This document shows, piece after piece, positions 39,001 through 57,000 of a stretch of DNA of 64,000 nt. Made by a program: the position numbers. Position 1 is the first letter of the stretch. Every line of letters begins with the position of its first letter. The DNA is from a plasmid: NCBI RefSeq assembly GCF_054482595.1, contig NZ_JBTHVH010000004.1; one strand, written 5' to 3'.

Positions 39001-42000
39001 GGGCTTTGAAAGAATCCGGTGTAACGATGAAGTTTGCTGAAGCTGAATTCGTTATTGATGCTATCGGCAGAGAAATGGATACGGATGTGATTTCAGTTCG
39101 GCATAACAGACAACAGATCCATTTATTTAATACCTATCAGGCGTTATGCCAGAAAGACCATGTGGCGGACCTCAATGCTCTTTCAAAATTTGTTGTCGGT
39201 CAAATGCATTCGGGAAAAATGCGCACGTTAGATTTGACACATTTGATAGTAGACGAAGTTCAGGATACTGACTCTATACAATTCTCATGGATAGCATTGC
39301 ATACAAGAGCTGGAGTCTATACGAGTATAGTTGGAGACGATGATCAGGCCATCTACTCCTTCAGATCCTCAGGAGGAGTCAAAATATTTCAACAGTTTGA
39401 AAAACACTTCAGACCTAACATATTTTACTTAAACACATGCTTTAGGTGTGAACCTGAAATTTTAGAGGTGGCCGGAGCACTGATAGGAAAGAATGTTTAC
39501 CGTTATGCCAAAGAGTTACGCTCGGCAAAAAAGGGAGGAGGAAAGGTCACTTTTCGTTCATATGTAGATATGGAGGAACAGATACAGGGTATTTTAAGCC
39601 TTATAAATCAGGATCCACATGGATGGGCAATTCTAAGCCGCAATAATGCTCACTTGGATGAGCTAGAAAGTTTGATCGAACAGCCAGTAATTCGTTACGG
39701 AGGTAAATCATTCTGGGATGAAAAAGAAACAAGCGATGTGTTAAGCCTTATGGCCTTTTTCCGACAATCAAATGCTCCTCGCTTAATGAAGAGAGTATTG
39801 GCATTGTTTGGAGAACAGGAATCAGTTTTGGATGATGTGGCATTGAGTATGAGAGGAAGAAAAGTTACTTTTGGCGACCTTGCCATCCCGGAGGACAGTT
39901 CTCTCGAAACAAAAACATTACATTCAAACTTCGTGCGCTTTACCCAGGAAAGTACTGATAAAGTTGAGATAGCAAAACGTTTCGCCAACCTTACGAAATG
40001 GATGGAATCGTCGTCAATCAAGATGAGGAGTAATAAAGGTACAGCAACCTTAACAAAAATTGCTTTAGACACTTGTAAACAGTGGGCAGAAAAGACTGGT
40101 TGGATGAATATGATCAATCGTGCTGCTGCAATGTCATTAGGCCCTAGGAAGAAGGACGAGGAATACAGCCCAGAGAAAGTAGTCCTATCAACCTTGCATG
40201 GTTCAAAGGGTCTTGAGTGGAATAAAGTAATAATAATGAGTTGTAATGCGGATCAGATACCAAGTAAAAGATCAGTTGGGGAGGAGGCAATAGAAGAAGA
40301 AAGACGTTTGCTTTATGTTGGATTTACGCGTGCAGAAAAGCAACTTTTTGTAATGTGGTATGGTGACCCTTCTTTCTTTTTAAGAGAATGCAGTGAAGAA
40401 AAGATAAAAGAAGCAGCTAATATTCGAATTTCTCCAGTTTATACAGAATAATTCGATATGGGCATTTACTTATGCTTAAAGCTATAGTATAAAAACAATG
40501 AGCTTAAATATCAGCTCCCAAATTTGAGTAACTTTGCTTAAAGTTACTTTCGCGTTAAGCGTTGATTTAGCCGTGAAAAGCGGCCAGCTTAAACAAGCTG
40601 TAAGACACCACCGGCAAAATGTCACCTTTGTCGCTGGTGCACTTCCCATGCCTGAAAAAGGCAATCTGAATTTACCAAACCGTAACTAATTTAGCTCCTC
40701 CTGGAGCTATTTTTGTTGCGTACTTCTAATGCCAGATAGTATAAATCAGGCGGTTCATAGCTTACGGGAGATGAATGACAGGCTTTGCCTTCGTGTTGAA
40801 ACAAAAAATTGTTTCTTCCTTCTTACTATATATAGGTGACCCCAAATGTCTAAAAATAAAGCTCGCAGTAAAGCCCTTCATCAAACCTTTAGTGAAATTA
40901 TTCCAGAGATGGATAAGGCGCTAAACAAACAGCTCTTAGAAGTTCTGATGAAATATACAGAACGTGATAATGAACTGATTGTTATTTTGAATGAGGACGG
41001 CCCAAATATCATTGAACTTAAGTCTCTTAAGCCTGTGTCTTTGTTGGCCGAAAAGCTTTCTGCTTATTCAAGCTATTATCATGTGGATGTTGTGGAGCTC
41101 GTGGTCAAGAAAATTGATTTCGAAGGAGCTTATAAGCTTCTTAAAGCTTCCCCAGATGTACCACTTTTTAAAAGCTTAACTGAACTGGATAAATATCTTG
41201 TTGAGGAGTTTGAAAAATACGGATTAAATTCATTTCTTGACGTGGATAATCTGGATTACTCACTTGAAAAAGCCAGTGAACTCAAAAATGAGCAGTTAAT
41301 AAATTGGGTTTCGGACATCATTTGCAAACGTGAAAAATTAACTTTACGTAAGCGTTTTGATGTCGCAGTAAAGGCCCACTACGAAAATGTAGAAAAAATG
41401 TATGATACCATTCGTCCGTTAATGAAAAAACTGGGTTTCCCAGAAGATCTCATGACGCACACCTTTAGTGAGTTAAGCGTTTTTGAAACTAAAGGATGGG
41501 ACCATGCAATAAAATCGAAAATTGAGACTCTCGCTAAGCGTGAAACTCAATATTTAGATGATGCGGCTAAAGCAGAGAATCGACGTCTTGTAACAGAGAA
41601 GTTGGAGAACTCTTTAGCGATTGCACCAACTAAACCAACAAGAAATTGGTTACATATTGCCGGAATTGCCTGTTTGGTAGTCTGCACGTTCATGTATGTA
41701 ACTAATAAATTTATTTAATCCTGTTAAGGGGGAACCCTAACGGGGCTTCTCTTTGAACAAATCGAGGAGCGGAAAATGTCATATCTTGAATATATCAATG
41801 AAGTAAAAGTGTCCGGGATAGTTATCAGTGCTGTGGAGAAAAAAATGACTGACCAGAGTATAGGTTTGTTAATAAAGCTCAAAAATAGGATGAAGACAGA
41901 AGTTGATGGTGAAATCACTGAGAGAGAATTTTCAGTTCAAATCAAGGTGTCGCCTGAAATGTATTCAACCTGTTTCACTGGTATAAATCAGGGTGATGAG

Positions 42001-54000: not shown

Positions 54001-57000
54001 ATATGCCAGATATATATATTAAGTTTAACGATACATTTGATGGGAACGGGGCGTTATATTGTGACAATGATGCCCTCATATCCCTCTATACCGATGTTGC
54101 TTCAATTATCAATGTGCCGGTGATGATGGAAGTAAGATTGATCAATAAAAGAGGGCGTGTTGTCTGTGATTCTTCGCATTCAACTTACGTATCTCTCGAA
54201 AGTAATGACCGATACAGAGTAACTGATCGCACATTACTAATAACTGAAGCTTTTGACGATTTTCGTAACGCGTCTCAATGATCCTTTTGCTTCAGTCCAA
54301 AAAAGTAACTTTGGTTGGCTGAAGACACTTGTCTATGACAATGTAAAATCTGTCGCTGGCATCTTCTTTTAGCTTAACCAAATTTTTATCTAACCCAGTG
54401 GGGAAGTCGCTTCCCTTCTGGGGCACTTCCTCTCAAATTCGAGGTAGTGTATATGACACATTCATCTGATGATAAAAACTATGTCCGAGCAGTTCTGAGT
54501 TATCTTGGCATAGATTTTGATGAGGCGGATATAGTATTAAGTGTTTGCCATTGTCAAAGTGACGAGCTTTCTTTTACCTGTAATATCAAAGCTATTGAAC
54601 TCAAGAATGTTGTTGATTTATATGTCGATAGTATCTCTGAGAATGAAATAGAAGCTTTAAACAGAGAATCTTTAAAATCGCGACTCTGTTACTTTCTTGA
54701 GGTGTTTGACGCAGTCTCTGGTCAGTACCTTGAAATTTCAGGAAAACACTTTGCAACTAGTCGTTTTGAATATGATGATGTTTGTAGTGAAGTTCTTAGC
54801 ATGTCTAATGATGTTTCTCAGTCGAAAGGTTATGACCGGGATGAATATAACAGACTGATGCAGGTTGATGGTCAGGTTATGATTGCCCGTTTTGCTTTGC
54901 AACAGTTCTGGGATACTCATTTTATTGGACTAATAACATTTGTATCTGAGTCTATAACATCGAGCCTCTATAAAGCTTATGAAACTTTTAGTGATATTAG
55001 TTTGGCTTGCTATAAACTGAGTGAATATTCTTATTCACGCTCTATCAACAGTGAATTGACCCTTAATATTTCACTTAAAGAAAATGACTTCTGTGAGGAC
55101 CTATCTGATTGCTATATGGAAGATGAGGCTTTACCTTCTGGTAGGGTAATTTCTCGACGCAACAATGACTCCATAATAAGTATTTATGAGAGCTATGCTG
55201 CGGCTTCTTATATTCCGATGATTGCATCTTTGGAAGTCGTTGATGAATACGGCGAAGTGGTTACTGACCTCTGCCATACCGTTTATGTTTCAGAGTTAAC
55301 CGGTGGGCGGATTAAAATCCACGACCGTAATGACTTAGTATCTGAAGTTTTCGATAACCTAAGAAATTTAAATCTTGCAGTTGGAGATTCAGTTTCACAA
55401 GCTGCTTGATTCTTTCCCTGATTTTGATTTTTTCTCACATACTCTTATGGCACGGTTTCCGTGCCTTTTTTTTGCCTCGCTTACAAGCGTCTACTCCTCT
55501 TCTACCTATCCCACCTTACATCACCACTTAAAATCTATCTTTCTAATTCCATTATCCTTTTCGTAGCCTCTAATGCTCTGGTATGAACATACTCTTTAAA
55601 CTCAAAAAAGTGCTATTAACGAAAAAAAATCCCTAAAGAGATTTGTATACTGTTCTCAACCAAGGAGAGCTCATGAATGAACTAAAATCCAAAAACGAGA
55701 ACAGTACCAAAAGCAACTTTCCCCCGGTTGATAATCAGTTTTGCTTTTACCATGTTGATTTCAGCATAGAACGACTACTTTCTACGGCCGAGGATCTCCA
55801 GCTTGAGTACATCTTCCAGAAACCTGGAAGTGAAGTAAGAAAGGATTTGGTTGAGCGATTCGAACGTGGAGAGCGCTTTGTTACAGCTTCACACTGTGAC
55901 AATTTCTGTGAAATCCTTGGTTGTCAAGGCCATCAGGAAAATGCATAAACCCATAAACCTACATTTCCACTTTTAAGGATGTTCACTAAAGAATGATTGG
56001 AGAAAGTATTTTTGACTGGGTAATTTACGGAATATCCATTTTGATATTTGCCTCAGCACTAATTGAAGGAAAGACAACTCGCTACCCAGCACTTTTTTTC
56101 TATGGGAGTTTAATTTTAATGTTAATCCTGATAGTTGCTGGAGGCCTTAACTGGTGGTTCTACAGGTCAAAATATGGCGCAGTAATCGTTATCTTCACAG
56201 TGGTTTCTTTACTGATGACTCGATTCCGCCTGGTCATATATAAATTAAGATTAAGAAAGTTAGTTTCAGAGATCAGATTTCGTATAAAAACGGGTTTTCG
56301 TATAATTCTTGTTTTGTCGGATAATGAGGATGAGCGTAATGTTCTGCTGTCTATGCTTAGCAACGTATTGCCAGAGCAAACGCTTATTCACACGCGTGAT
56401 GCTCTCGGACCTCATTCAGGGCCTATCCTAAAAGCTCTTGAGCTACATCATCAACAGGGAACAGGTTACATACTCGTCTGTGAACAACAAATCTCAGCGC
56501 GTACGTGGTTGAGTATCGTAGAAAATGGGAAACCTGATACATCTATAGCTGTTAATTTTCATTCGATCCCAGAAATGGAGTGATTTTTCAATGAGTAGAA
56601 CCGTTTCACAAAGTGTCACAGAAGATTGTCTTTTTGATACCCGCACACAAGTCAGATTACAACTAAGTCGAAGCGTTCATAAAACGCTGGCATCTGCTAA
56701 AGAAATTTTACAGGGAAGGGGGGTTGATTCGGTCTCTATTGAAGATCTTGTGCGAGCCTGTCTTGAAGAGAACCAGCCAATTGATCTCGCCTCACTTTAC
56801 CTTGAAAATCTCTTAAAACAGAAAGGTACCAGCATTTGCGATTTTTAGTGTTTTCAAACCTATTAGATAAAATGCCGGTTGTGTTTATATAACATCAATA
56901 ATTTCATGCAACAGGTAAAACATGAGTACTCAAAAGCAACTTTCCAGAACAACCGGCACTGAACGTATGTTTAAGGAAGAGCTGGCGTTATCCTTAATTT

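What the first reader, a model, noticed from the sequence alone, without database searches (positions are those of the whole stretch)
41733..54432. One family of intergenic palindromic elements precedes nearly every gene of the 41.7-54.5 kb block
At least 11 consecutive plus-strand genes are preceded, 8-35 nt before the start codon, by the same composite element. It has a short palindrome (A)ACCC-W-A-N2-4-GGGG. The G-run of that palindrome is reused as the 5' arm of a second GC-rich hairpin, usually followed by a T-tract and then the RBS.

Copies:
- 41733-41755 (aaCCCTAACGGGGC)
- 42161-42204 (CCCTAAAGGGGAGAAATCCC ttcat GGGATTTCTCC tttt)
- 44618-44665 (aaCCCTATCGGGAAAtctTTCCCG..GGGTTTCCCC T8)
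- 45831-45866 (aaCCCCAGATGGgtacttcaCCATCTGGG..)
- 47901-47938 (taCCCAATCGGGGCaaaagGCCCCGgTGGGT cttttt)
- 49741-49769 (aCCCATAACGGgagtattaCCGTTATGG)
- 50352-50376 (CCCTGATG..CATCAGGG)
- 51291-51336
- 52300-52335
- 53281-53325
- 54392-54432

The arms are related in sequence, not only in shape. GGGAGAAATCCC / GGGATTTCTCCC occurs at 42173-42200 and again at 52309-52335. Near copies GGGTTTC..GAAACCC lie at 44648-44675, and GGGTTTCTCCC lies at 48229-48240.

Several copies offer two mutually exclusive pairings. At 52300-52335, for example, either the 13-bp stem TCTCCCATAGGGA/TCCCTATGGGAGA or the 12-bp stem GGGATTTCTCCC/GGGAGAAATCCC can form.

A terminator-like structure in front of every gene of a co-directional block, built from a shared sequence family, is not normal operon architecture. 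Possible roles are per-gene attenuators, RNA-processing or stability elements, binding sites for a plasmid RNA/DNA-hairpin binding protein, or structures that act on the transferred single strand.
Basis: seen in the sequence. Interest (0 to 1): 0.7.

Follow-up and report, generated by a model that had tools for sequence, protein, structure and literature searches.

The report
Repeated ribosome-site-locking RNA module in plasmids
Nearly every gene in one conjugation-linked operon block of this IncHI2 resistance plasmid is preceded by a conserved two-hairpin mRNA module that buries the ribosome-binding site and carries a built-in decoy able to free it, and the same module, absent from Rfam, sits in the same gene block of distant plasmids.

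Summary
All 11 listed elements are at the stated coordinates, and their predicted folds are far more stable than shuffled sequence (mean z -4.2).

Each element continues to the start codon.
- Hairpin I (a:a') lies 4-27 nt after the upstream stop.
- Hairpin II (b':b'') buries the Shine-Dalgarno sequence and ends 0-7 nt before the ATG.
- Segment b, at the top of hairpin I, copies b'' and can pair with b' instead.

Compensatory changes support the pairings in four IncHI lineages and in a 63-copy alignment. The sense strand folds better than the antisense strand.

A covariance model built only from a Pseudoalteromonas plasmid finds the IncHI copies. The family model finds copies beside the same CobS-like/DUF3150/CobT-like/primase genes in Shewanella, Vibrio, Marinobacter and Ralstonia plasmids. 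It finds none in the other 200 kb of an IncHI2 plasmid. Rfam has no match.

The T-tracts are IncHI2-specific, so termination is not the conserved function.

Best reading: a cis-acting mRNA switch that controls translation of each cistron. The trigger is unresolved; a ribosome terminating upstream is the leading candidate. I rate it a new variant of a known kind.

The parts
41720..41775 (+). Module before gene 41776. Hairpin I is 41720-41744. Hairpin II is 41745-41770 (b' GCTTCTCTTT, b'' ATCGAGGAGC containing the SD).
   Evidence: MFE domains are -13.0 and -7.9 kcal/mol. The structure is conserved in HI1, HI1B and HIx with G.U-compatible changes. This is a weak member: the family model gives E=2.1.
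42161..42213 (+). Module before gene 42214. The most stable fold here is the b:b' form, GGAGAAATCCC/GGGATTTCTCC + T4 (42164-42209).
   Evidence: The fold is -23.8 kcal/mol. R2 gives E=0.0028, and this copy was not in the training set. Orthologues are present in all six IncHI-type lineages.
44618..44675 (+). Module before the DUF3150 gene (44676). Hairpin I is 44619-44646. Decoy b is 44625-44635. Hairpin II is 44648-44675 (b' GGGTTTCCCC, b'' GGAGAAACCC, abutting the ATG).
   Evidence: Energies are -16.1 and -12.6 kcal/mol, with E(b:b') -12.4. The model trained only on Pseudoalteromonas finds it at E=0.0034. b':b'' covaries: GGGTTTC/GAAACCC (HI2), AGGTTTTC/GAAAACCT (HI1), GAGTTTTC/GAAAACTC (HIx). 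RNAalifold on 7 lineages returns the b:b' helix.
45822..45880 (+). Module before the VWA (CobT-like) gene 45881. Hairpin I is 45824-45849. b is 45830-45839. Hairpin II is 45851-45879.
   Evidence: Energies are -16.7 and -10.0 kcal/mol, with E(b:b') -12.0. The cognate b is the best of 10 in the swap test. R2 gives E=0.012. There is an A:U to G:C compensatory change in HIx.
47901..47964 (+). Module before gene 47965. Hairpin I is 47902-47931. b is 47909-47919 (CGGGGCAAAAG). Hairpin II is 47934-47963 (TTTTGCTCC / GGAGCAAAA).
   Evidence: Energies are -20.9 and -10.3 kcal/mol, with E(b:b') -11.6. Hairpin II is conserved in 7 lineages. Just outside the predicted helix there is a G:C to A:U change between the Klebsiella and Raoultella copies. 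R2 gives E=0.034.
49741..49802 (+). Module before gene 49803, the first gene after an internal terminator. Hairpin I is 49743-49768. Hairpin II is 49770-49799.
   Evidence: Energies are -13.6 and -12.1 kcal/mol. There is an A:U to C:G compensatory change in HI1 and HI1B. The covariance models do not detect it. A conserved 25-36 codon uORF upstream ends 2 nt before the CCC run in HI1 and HIx.
50351..50402 (+). Module before gene 50403. Hairpin I is 50351-50377. Hairpin II is 50378-50400 (GGCCTC / GAGGCT).
   Evidence: Energies are -14.1 and -7.6 kcal/mol. The architecture is kept in HI1 and HI1B. The covariance models do not detect it, so this is the weakest member.
51291..51351 (+). Module before gene 51352. 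Hairpin I is 51292-51319. b is 51298-51308 (TGGGGATCACA). Hairpin II is 51321-51351 (GTGATCCC... / ...GAGGATCAC).
   Evidence: Energies are -19.9 and -13.8 kcal/mol, with E(b:b') -16.5. All three segments covary: GGGATCAC/GTGATCCC/GGATCAC (HI2) against GGGATTAC/GTAATCCC/GGATTAC (HI1, HI1B). R1 gives E=0.079.
52298..52355 (+). Module before gene 52356. Hairpin I is 52298-52331. The competing helix is 52309-52335. Hairpin II is 52333-52348 (CCCTCT / AGAGGG).
   Evidence: Energies are -25.1 and -8.1 kcal/mol. Both alternative stems are kept in HI1 and HI1B through G.U pairs on the plus strand. R2 gives E=0.0071.
53281..53342 (+). Module before gene 53343. Hairpin I is 53282-53309. Hairpin II is 53312-53340 (GCACTTCCTT / GAGGTAGTGT).
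   Evidence: Energies are -17.2 and -8.4 kcal/mol. R2 gives E=2e-5, and this copy was not in the training set. Masking 16 nt from the stop raises the unpaired probability of the SD arm from 0.02 to 0.54.
54392..54452 (+). Module before gene 54453. Hairpin I is 54394-54422. b is 54399-54411. Hairpin II is 54423-54450.
   Evidence: Energies are -18.8 and -10.9 kcal/mol, with E(b:b') -13.3. R1 gives E=0.032. There is a C:G to G:C compensatory change against HI1. This copy lies about 110 nt from the upstream stop.
40452..40845 (+). Conserved leader and promoter region of the first operon (genes 40846 to 49532).
   Evidence: It is better conserved between lineages than the coding sequence. It is not a module. 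The operon corresponds to R27 genes R0002..R0204, which are induced 5-23-fold at 25 C (PMC7366339; mapping by position).
49542..49564 (.). Strong bidirectional intrinsic terminator that ends the first operon.
   Evidence: Terminator scan on both strands. It is conserved in HI1, HI1B and HIx.
48187..48299 (+). Spacer before the primase gene. It is not a module. It holds a small terminator-like hairpin (48192-48209) and a long hairpin (48220-48285).
   Evidence: The long hairpin is -42.1 kcal/mol with z=-8. It is conserved in all IncHI-type lineages.

Best explanation
The elements are copies of one cis-acting mRNA module that sets the translation of each cistron in two co-directional operons (40.8-49.5 kb and 49.8-55.4 kb).

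Anatomy, 5' to 3':
- the upstream stop codon
- a gap of 4-27 nt
- arm a, (A)ACCC-N3-5-GGGG
- a loop
- arm a', CCCC-N3-5-GGG
- a gap of 0-3 nt
- b', a pyrimidine-rich anti-Shine-Dalgarno arm
- an A/U-rich loop
- b'', the Shine-Dalgarno sequence plus 4-7 gene-specific bases
- a gap of 0-7 nt
- the ATG

In the most stable fold (OFF), a pairs with a' to form hairpin I, and b' pairs with b'' to form hairpin II. The ribosome-binding site is then buried. The predicted unpaired probability of the SD arm is about 0.05.

Segment b is the G-run at the 3' end of arm a plus the loop of hairpin I. It is a near copy of b''. It can pair with b' almost as well as b'' does (-11.4 against -12.0 kcal/mol on average). 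While hairpin I is closed, b is hidden.

When the 5' strand of hairpin I (AACCC plus spacer) is held single-stranded, b can take b' away from b''. The ribosome-binding site is then released (ON).

I think the most likely trigger is the ribosome terminating on the upstream cistron, or on a small leader ORF where there is no upstream gene. That would make this a translational-coupling relay. A block-encoded or host RNA-binding factor, or RNA processing, remains possible.

Shown by computation:
- the structures and their covariation
- the decoy relation between b and b''
- the restriction of copies to this gene block and their anchoring to start codons
- conservation across distant plasmids

Inferred:
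- that the structures form in vivo on mRNA
- that they lower translation
- the identity of the trigger
For: (1) Fold. The same tandem-hairpin minimum-free-energy fold, with the SD in the 3' arm of hairpin II, is predicted for most spacers in six lineages. Mean z is -4.2.

(2) Covariation in four IncHI lineages.
- 244 pairs were scored: 18 have compensatory changes, 32 have one-sided compatible changes, and 94% of cells are paired.
- Slid controls give 1-3 compensatory pairs and 44-54% paired.
- Stem columns are variable in 30-33% of cases, against 57-68% for flanks and the loop of hairpin II.

(3) The 63-copy alignment.
- All 9 pairs of hairpin II change on both sides.
- The covariation score is 0.343, against 0.186 in shuffles (0 of 500 reach it) and at most 0.155 in slid controls.

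(4) The decoy.
- The cognate upstream region pairs with b' at -11.4 kcal/mol, against -7.7 +/- 0.27 for permuted partners (0 of 5000).
- b spans the end of arm a and the loop of hairpin I in 52 of 55 copies.
- All three segments b, b' and b'' covary at 51282.

(5) Strand. The sense strand folds 3.5 kcal/mol better than the antisense strand in 11 of 14 spacers (p=0.005). G:T pairs outnumber A:C pairs 81 to 8.

(6) One family, tied to genes.
- A model trained only on a Pseudoalteromonas plasmid finds IncHI copies full-length and ending at start codons.
- The family model finds no hit with E<1 in the other 200 kb of an IncHI2 plasmid.
- It finds many copies beside the same four-gene core in Shewanella, Vibrio, Marinobacter and Ralstonia plasmids.

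(7) Trigger.
- Masking the 5' half of arm a opens the SD in seven of the window's modules.
- A footprint of 13-19 nt from the real stop codon raises SD-arm accessibility from about 0.05 to at least 0.3 in 16 of 40 modules.
- The module in a long spacer is served by a conserved uORF that stops 2 nt before the CCC run in two lineages.
Against: - There is no experimental evidence. All structures are predicted.
- The OFF fold is 10-15 kcal/mol more stable than ON. Without an active trigger the genes would be nearly untranslatable.
- The distance from the stop to hairpin I is loose, 4-27 nt. With a realistic ribosome footprint, 24 of 40 modules are not predicted to open.
- Six of 52 copies have no upstream ORF of at least 12 codons.
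- The decoy is specific (cognate ranks first) in only 4 of 10 IncHI2 copies.
- In short spacers, any second hairpin is bound to overlap the SD region.
- The 63-copy alignment was fitted to the model's structure, which favours that structure. The basal helix of hairpin I is only 38% paired in it, because of register shifts.
- Covariance-model E-values are rough.
Confidence: 0.58

Rival explanations
1. The elements are per-gene intrinsic terminators or transcription attenuators. The b:b' hairpin followed by a T-tract would end a fraction of transcripts after each gene, and a:a' would act as an antiterminator.
For: In the IncHI2 window, b:b' or hairpin I is followed by T4-T8 at 42161, 44648, 45851, 47902, 51300 and 53296. 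Terminator-like sites are enriched, 28 against 11.1 expected. a:a' and b:b' are mutually exclusive, as in attenuators.
Against: The T-tracts are not conserved. They are interrupted in the IncHI1 and IncHI1B orthologues and absent from the Pseudoalteromonas and Shewanella copies, while the rest of the module is conserved. In the predicted fold the T-rich stretch is the loop of hairpin II. This reading does not explain why b'' covaries with b' right up to the ATG.
Confidence: 0.12
2. The elements are mRNA processing and stability punctuation. Hairpin I would protect the 3' end of the upstream segment from exonucleases. Hairpin II would protect the 5' end of the downstream segment after endonucleolytic cleavage in the A/U-rich linker or loop. 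Cleavage in the loop of hairpin II could also unlock the SD.
For: A stable hairpin sits right after each stop codon and another sits at each 5' end. The loops are A/U-rich. mRNA levels along R0002..R0204 of R27 are non-monotonic (172, 1306, 1201, 310, 268, 921, 197, 352, 403 array units). That would fit segmental stability, although probe effects cannot be excluded. This role is compatible with the best explanation.
Against: It does not need, and does not explain, the conserved b copy of the SD segment, the conserved orientation of the G and C blocks, or the fixed distance to the ATG.
Confidence: 0.18
3. The elements are single-stranded DNA structures that act during conjugative transfer or replication, for example priming signals for the block's own primase or sites for a hairpin-binding protein.
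For: The block encodes a primase, and in relatives an SSB and a helicase. Folding is strand-biased, and G.T pairs are tolerated in DNA. The block is co-induced with transfer genes at 25 C.
Against: The copies occur only in this gene block and not in the other 200 kb of the plasmid, whereas priming signals would be needed plasmid-wide. Every copy ends at a start codon and includes the SD. The block lies more than 100 kb from mobI and the MobH relaxase, next to which oriT lies in related MOBH elements (own knowledge, not tested here). The hairpins are short, 9-15 bp.
Confidence: 0.06
4. The elements are selfish repeats of the REP, BIME or MITE kind that have spread into intergenic spacers and have no gene-specific function.
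For: This is a family of imperfect palindromes placed just after stop codons. Within one plasmid, copies often share arm sequences, for example 42173/52324 and 53277/54392 here, and there are near-identical copies in Pseudoalteromonas.
Against: The copies sit at orthologous positions in all lineages and diverge with them. None lies outside the block. All are on the coding strand and in register with the ATG. The compensatory changes indicate selection on pairing.
Confidence: 0.03

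Closest known systems
Translational attenuation leaders (ermC, cat, cmlA type)
   Same: There are two tandem hairpins, and the second buries the SD and start of the regulated gene. An alternative pairing with a segment of the first hairpin frees the SD. A ribosome sitting on the 5' strand of the first hairpin is the switch.
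   Different: Those leaders precede a single gene and depend on a drug-stalled ribosome inside a dedicated leader peptide. Here the module is repeated before at least 11 cistrons. The competing segment is an SD look-alike in the top of hairpin I. The upstream ORF ends before hairpin I rather than inside it. No inducer is known.
Translational coupling through SD-occluding structure (MS2 coat-replicase, rpmI-rplT, R1 tap-repA, ColIb-P9 repY-repZ)
   Same: The SD of the downstream cistron is base-paired. Translation or termination of the upstream ORF is thought to open it. In plasmid replication control, a leader ORF serves this purpose.
   Different: Those are single, idiosyncratic structures that the upstream ribosome directly unwinds. 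Here there is a standard, transposable-looking two-hairpin cassette with an indirect relay through a decoy. It is conserved as a family across plasmids of several orders.
REP/BIME and other intercistronic stabiliser hairpins
   Same: Both are families of imperfect palindromes just downstream of stop codons inside operons. REP within about 15 nt of a stop is known to affect translation of the upstream gene (own knowledge, not tested here).
   Different: REPs are dispersed genome-wide, occur in both orientations, are not in register with the next start codon and are spread by RAYT transposases. These modules are confined to one gene block, are always on the sense strand and end at the ATG.
sRNA-activated 5' leaders (rpoS with DsrA/RprA: 'anti-antisense')
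   Same: The SD is locked by an upstream complementary arm, and activation works by offering that arm another partner.
   Different: There the competitor is a trans-acting sRNA. Here the competitor is built into the same RNA and is hidden in hairpin I.
T4-type phage PeSL cassettes (promoter-early stem-loops before each ORF)
   Same: A repeated stem-loop-containing cassette precedes nearly every ORF of a gene block in a mobile genome.
   Different: PeSLs carry an early promoter and are thought to mediate gene shuffling at the DNA level. Here promoter-like sites are not enriched, 35 against 48.5 expected, and the conserved partner is the SD.

Membership tests
SD-sequestering translational switch (attenuation/coupling class) | The SD and the spacer to the start codon are base-paired in the most stable fold. 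| tested here: met
   The 3' arm of hairpin II ends 0-7 nt before the ATG in 10 of 11 window copies. The mean unpaired probability of the SD arm is 0.05 in 40 copies.
SD-sequestering translational switch (attenuation/coupling class) | The pairing is maintained by compensatory evolution. | tested here: met
   There are 18 compensatory pairs against 1-3 in slid controls. All 9 pairs of hairpin II covary in 63 copies, and 0 of 500 shuffles reach the observed score.
SD-sequestering translational switch (attenuation/coupling class) | A conserved alternative pairing releases the SD. | tested here: met
   b:b' averages -11.4 kcal/mol against -7.7 for permuted partners, with 0 of 5000 permutations reaching it. 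b, b' and b'' all covary at 51282. RNAalifold returns b:b' for the DUF3150 spacer.
SD-sequestering translational switch (attenuation/coupling class) | The switch is thrown by a ribosome on the upstream ORF or leader. | tested here: inconclusive
   The stop lies 4-27 nt before the CCC run. A 13-19 nt footprint opens 16 of 40 modules in silico. A conserved uORF ends at hairpin I of the 49741 module in other lineages. Six copies have no upstream ORF.
SD-sequestering translational switch (attenuation/coupling class) | There is a measured effect on translation. | not testable with these tools
   This needs reporter fusions, toeprinting or ribosome profiling.
Rho-independent terminator / transcription attenuator | A G+C-rich hairpin is followed immediately by a U-tract, as a conserved property. 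| tested here: not met
   This holds for about 6 IncHI2 copies. The tract is interrupted in the IncHI1 and IncHI1B orthologues and absent in Pseudoalteromonas and Shewanella copies.
Rho-independent terminator / transcription attenuator | Transcript 3' ends lie at the element. | not testable with these tools
   This needs Term-seq or 3' RACE.
REP/BIME/MITE-type dispersed repeats | Copies are dispersed over the replicon in both orientations, independent of gene starts. | tested here: not met
   The family model gives no hit with E<1 in 200 kb outside the window and none with E<0.4 outside the block within the window. Apart from two antisense matches (L059 9367-9433, E=5.5e-5; L035 13144-13208, E=0.039), the hits with E<=0.05 are on the coding strand, and those checked against the annotation end at a start codon.
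Any described RNA family (Rfam 15) | A match reaches a family's gathering score. | tested here: not met
   There are no matches in the window or in six related loci. With permissive thresholds only chance-level hits appear.
RNA thermometer | The SD helix melts in the physiological range. | tested here: not met
   The predicted unpaired probability of b'' is unchanged (0.02-0.22) between 25, 37 and 45 C. This is a thermodynamic prediction only.
Single-strand DNA signals (ssi / Frpo-type) | Long structured single-stranded DNA carrying promoter or primase recognition features, placed where priming or early transcription is needed. | tested here: not met
   The hairpins are 9-15 bp. Promoter-like sites are not enriched. 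The copies are restricted to one block more than 100 kb from mobI and the relaxase. Which strand is transferred could not be determined.

The most novel reading that the evidence does not exclude
The module is a dedicated, operon-wide RNA switch family. One event or factor captures the invariant 5' strand of hairpin I (AACCC plus spacer). Candidates are a terminating ribosome relayed from cistron to cistron, or a protein of the co-inherited four-gene core of CobS-like ATPase, DUF3150, CobT-like VWA protein and primase. Capture releases a built-in SD decoy that strips the anti-SD from the real SD. The result would be ordered or all-or-none translation of a conjugation-linked DNA-processing regulon in IncHI plasmids and in marine MOBH-type plasmids. 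That would be a new class of cis-regulatory RNA and a previously unseen post-transcriptional layer in the control of major resistance plasmids.
Probability: 0.3. Interest if true: 0.85.

Novelty: new variant of a known kind. Interest (0 to 1): 0.68.

Why it matters
IncHI1 and IncHI2 plasmids carry multidrug resistance in typhoid and other enteric bacteria. This window itself carries mcr-1.

The block with the modules is part of the conserved backbone. Its first operon is switched on together with the transfer genes at 25 C in R27 (PMC7366339). The functions of most of its genes and their control are unknown.

A structured RNA module repeated before at least 11 cistrons points to a strong post-transcriptional control layer that has not been described:
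- it is conserved with compensatory changes from Enterobacterales to Alteromonadales, Vibrionales and a betaproteobacterium;
- it is absent from Rfam;
- six full-text literature searches found no description of it.

It gives a directly testable model of lock, decoy and trigger. It offers a natural example of a standardised intercistronic translation-control part. It is also a sequence marker for a widespread plasmid gene block of unknown function.

Tried and rejected
- Rfam at gathering and at permissive thresholds gave nothing relevant. There was one 23-bit partial match of hairpin I at 49743 to the ssNA-helicase motif (E=1.7), which I take as chance.
- RNA thermometer: the predicted SD pairing does not change between 25 and 45 C.
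- Paralogy as the source of similarity: only genes 53343 and 54453 are detectable paralogues (27% identity). Gene duplication therefore explains at most the similar 53277 and 54392 modules, not the family.
- Leading-region or single-stranded-DNA promoter idea: the relaxase and mobI lie more than 100 kb away.
- Looking for a trans factor led nowhere.
  - The DUF3150 profile against PDB sequences gave only a marginal hit to an L7Ae-like protein (E=0.25).
  - The AlphaFold model was poor (pLDDT 59.8).
  - Foldseek against PDB found nothing with E<0.5.
- Pfam, PHROGs and NCBIfam give no function for 10 of the 15 block proteins searched.
- The genome-contig scan returned only lineages already seen.
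- MAFFT alignments of all seven lineages put the b':b'' helix of the DUF3150 spacer out of register. I therefore did not score that helix with the count of structure pairs and relied on per-lineage folds and on the model-based alignment.
- Six literature searches found no description of the elements.
- Technical point: loci fetched in parallel were not copied to the script machine and had to be fetched again.

Full report
**Context**

The window is IncHI2 plasmid backbone. It is 100% identical over 41-55.5 kb to many E. coli and Salmonella IncHI2 plasmids such as pHNGD64-NDM.

The block lies directly downstream of the transfer helicase gene trhI. It contains 15 co-directional genes:
- three unknowns
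- a CobS-like AAA_5 ATPase
- a small ORF
- a DUF3150 protein
- a CobT-like VWA protein
- a small ORF
- a Toprim/DUF7146 primase
- a 173-aa unknown
- five proteins of about 300 aa with unknown function

A strong terminator at 49542-49564 splits the block in two.

By position, the first nine genes are R27 genes R0002, R0001 and R0210 down to R0204. A published microarray study reports exactly this 'cluster of 9 genes' as induced 5- to 23-fold at 25 C against 37 C, like the transfer genes (PMC7366339).

- ACCC-N4-6-GGG occurs 28 times in the window against 7.7 +/- 3.4 in shuffles. Nine of these are plus-strand copies in the spacers of the block.
- The spacers are far more structured than shuffled sequence, with mean z -4.2.
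- Terminator-like sites are enriched.
- A mechanical scan of all 61 ORFs of the window finds two adjacent stable hairpins, the second ending no more than 13 nt before a start codon. It finds them at 12 of 15 block genes against 3 of 46 others, and those three only at internal alternative starts.

RNA folding of each spacer from the stop codon to the ATG gives the same picture almost every time.
- Hairpin I (a:a') has energies of -13 to -25 kcal/mol.
- Hairpin II (b':b'') follows after 0-3 nt, with energies of -8 to -14 kcal/mol.
- The 3' arm of hairpin II is the Shine-Dalgarno sequence plus the bases up to 0-7 nt before the ATG.
- b is the 3' end of arm a plus the loop of hairpin I, and it is a near copy of b''.

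**Comparative evidence within IncHI-type plasmids**

The block is syntenic in these lineages:
- IncHI1 (pHCM1 and R27)
- an IncHI1B Citrobacter plasmid
- a metagenomic lineage whose DUF3150 protein is 66% identical
- three Klebsiella/Raoultella lineages at about 40% identity

In the one DNA comparison run (49.5-55.5 kb against IncHI1 and IncHI1B), matched stretches are about 67% identical. The modules persist at the same spacers with different sequences. Examples:
- At 51282, b/b'/b'' are GGGATCAC/GTGATCCC/GGATCAC in IncHI2 and GGGATTAC/GTAATCCC/GGATTAC in IncHI1 and IncHI1B.
- Before the DUF3150 gene, b':b'' is GGGTTTC/GAAACCC, AGGTTTTC/GAAAACCT, GAGTTTTC/GAAAACTC and GATATTTTTCC/GGAGAAATATC in four lineages.

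Pooled over 13 spacers and four lineages, 244 predicted pairs include 18 with compensatory changes and 32 with one-sided compatible changes, and 94% of cells are paired. When the 3' partners are slid by 1-3 columns, these figures fall to 1-3 compensatory pairs and 44-54% paired.

Stem columns vary in 30-33% of cases. Flanks, the linker and the loop of hairpin II vary in 57-68%. The loop of hairpin I, which holds b, is intermediate at 45%.

The plus (sense) strand folds 3.5 kcal/mol better than the minus strand in 11 of 14 spacers (p=0.005). G:T pairs outnumber A:C pairs 81 to 8. This fits RNA of the sense strand, although the structure prediction itself allows G.U pairs.

**One family, far beyond IncHI**

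A Pseudoalteromonas spongiae plasmid has the same gene order: helicase, ssb, AAA ATPase, DUF3150, VWA, primase. Its DUF3150 protein is 20% identical. Only those four core proteins are detectably shared.

It carries the module before at least 11 genes in a very regular form: AACCC-N3-GGGGATACAAC-CCCC-N3-GGGG..GTATCTCC-loop-GGAGGAGATAC-ATG.

A covariance model built only from these copies finds IncHI copies at the right spacers. The matches are full-length, on the coding strand and end at the start codon. Examples are IncHI1 15907 (E=3e-4) and window 44612 (E=0.0034), 54387 (E=0.032) and 51284 (E=0.079).

A second model was built from the 30 best hits. In 264 kb (the window plus the other 200 kb of pHNGD64-NDM) all hits with E<0.05 are block spacers.
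- These include five window copies that were not used for training: 53275, 42158, 52295, 45817 and 47896.
- 41712 is weak (E=2.1).
- 49741 and 50352 are missed.

The same model finds copies next to the same four-gene core in other plasmids, almost all on the coding strand and, where checked against the annotation, ending at annotated starts:
- at least 12 in Shewanella algae pKC-Na-R1
- about 5 in Vibrio cholerae pNDM-116-14
- 2 in a Marinobacter plasmid
- 2 in a Ralstonia insidiosa plasmid

In the resulting 63-copy alignment, all nine pairs of hairpin II change on both sides. The covariation score is 0.343, against 0.186 in shuffles (0 of 500 reach it) and at most 0.155 in slid controls. The top of hairpin I is 89% paired. 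The basal helix is badly aligned, at 38%.

No Rfam family matches any of these loci. Six literature searches found no description.

**The decoy is statistically real**

Over 55 copies, the region upstream of b' pairs with its own b' at -11.4 kcal/mol on average. Permuted partners give -7.7 +/- 0.27, and 0 of 5000 permutations reach the observed value. This is almost as good as the SD lock itself, at -12.0. The pairing segment spans the end of arm a and the loop of hairpin I in 52 of 55 copies.

Within single plasmids, the cognate partner ranks first in 4 of 10 (IncHI2), 5 of 12 (IncHI1) and 6 of 9 (IncHI1B) copies. The decoy is therefore clear in about half of the IncHI copies and weaker in the rest.

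**What it is not**

- Not primarily terminators. The T-tracts are lineage-specific.
- Not dispersed selfish repeats. The copies are orthologous in position, occur in one orientation and lie in one block.
- Not a thermometer. Predicted SD pairing is flat from 25 to 45 C.
- Not explained by gene duplication. Only 53343 and 54453 are detectable paralogues.
- A role on single-stranded DNA is not excluded. It fits poorly with the restriction to one block more than 100 kb from mobI and the relaxase, and with the register to start codons.

**How it probably works, and what remains open**

The OFF fold is 10-15 kcal/mol more stable than the ON fold. The SD arm has a predicted unpaired probability of about 0.05. 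Something active must therefore open it.

Holding the first 8-10 nt of arm a single-stranded makes OFF and ON about equal or favours ON.

Evidence bearing on the ribosome as trigger:
- The upstream stop codon lies 4-27 nt (median about 10) before the CCC run.
- With a footprint of 13-19 nt from the stop, the SD arm opens to at least 0.3 in 16 of 40 modules.
- The 49741 module sits 200 nt from the previous gene. It is served by a conserved 25-36 codon uORF (MLAQxNKCA...). The uORF's stop lies 2 nt before the CCC run in IncHI1 and the metagenomic lineage, inside arm a in IncHI1B, and at the 3' end of hairpin I in IncHI2.

These points favour a terminating ribosome as the trigger, that is, a translational-coupling relay. 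They do not establish it, because six copies have no upstream ORF of at least 12 codons and 24 of 40 do not open in silico.

The orientation of the four G/C blocks (CCC, GGGG, CCCC, GGG) never flips among the 63 copies. Something beyond pairing is therefore selected. The need for b to resemble an SD explains two of the blocks. The invariant AACCC 5' strand could be a recognition site for a factor.

My attempts to find an RNA-binding protein among the co-inherited genes failed.

**Verdict**

The finding is real and more interesting than a set of terminators. It is a conserved, widespread structured-RNA module, absent from Rfam and from the literature I could search, that locks the ribosome-binding site of each cistron and carries its own release element.

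The principle of SD sequestration with alternative pairing is known from attenuation and coupling systems. The standard cassette with a decoy, repeated along an operon and tied to one plasmid gene block, is new. All of this rests on sequence analysis. The effect on translation and the trigger need experiments.

Noticed in passing
window 59987-62406: An mcr-1 / pap2 cassette. The 541-aa ORF scores 1302.7 bits against NCBIfam MCR-1 (cut-off 1100). The next ORF matches PAP2_near_MCR1. The cassette is inserted just after the backbone genes and is absent at this place in pHNGD64-NDM.
   Followed up: partly
window 48220-48285: A long hairpin of about 66 nt (-42 kcal/mol, z=-8) lies immediately upstream of, or overlapping, the start of the primase gene. 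It is conserved with compensatory changes in all IncHI-type lineages. The Pseudoalteromonas plasmid also has a long hairpin (-48.7 kcal/mol) before its primase gene (L053 11888-11998). It is distinct from the module and may be a primase autoregulation element or a priming signal.
   Followed up: partly
window 40452-40845: The 394-nt region upstream of the first block gene is clearly better conserved between IncHI lineages than the coding sequences. It holds several small hairpins and a promoter-like core, TTCTAATGCCAGAAAGTATAAATCAGGCGGTT, that is also kept in the Klebsiella lineage. It is probably the control region of the 25 C-induced operon R0002..R0204 of R27.
   Followed up: no
window 49661-49771 (and L005 11164-11241): A conserved small uORF (MLAQ[L/F]NKCA..., 25-36 codons) lies in the long spacer before gene 49803. 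Its stop codon lies at the base of hairpin I in IncHI1 and HIx, inside arm a in IncHI1B, and at the 3' end of hairpin I in IncHI2.
   Followed up: yes
L053, L058, L059, L060, L061 (Pseudoalteromonas, Shewanella, Vibrio, Ralstonia and Marinobacter plasmids): The order AAA ATPase (CobS-like), DUF3150, VWA (CobT-like), toprim primase is conserved in large plasmids of several orders. SSB and a TrhI-like helicase are often nearby. The function of this core is unknown. In Shewanella a CBASS system lies next to it.
   Followed up: partly
window 55449-55473: A strong intrinsic terminator (GGCACGGTTTCCGTGCC + T8) ends the second operon. It is conserved in IncHI1 and IncHI1B. No modules occur downstream of it.
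   Followed up: yes
window about 11640-15470: About 3.8 kb between the traC-like gene and parA has no annotated gene in the matching plasmid records. It was not examined.
   Followed up: no
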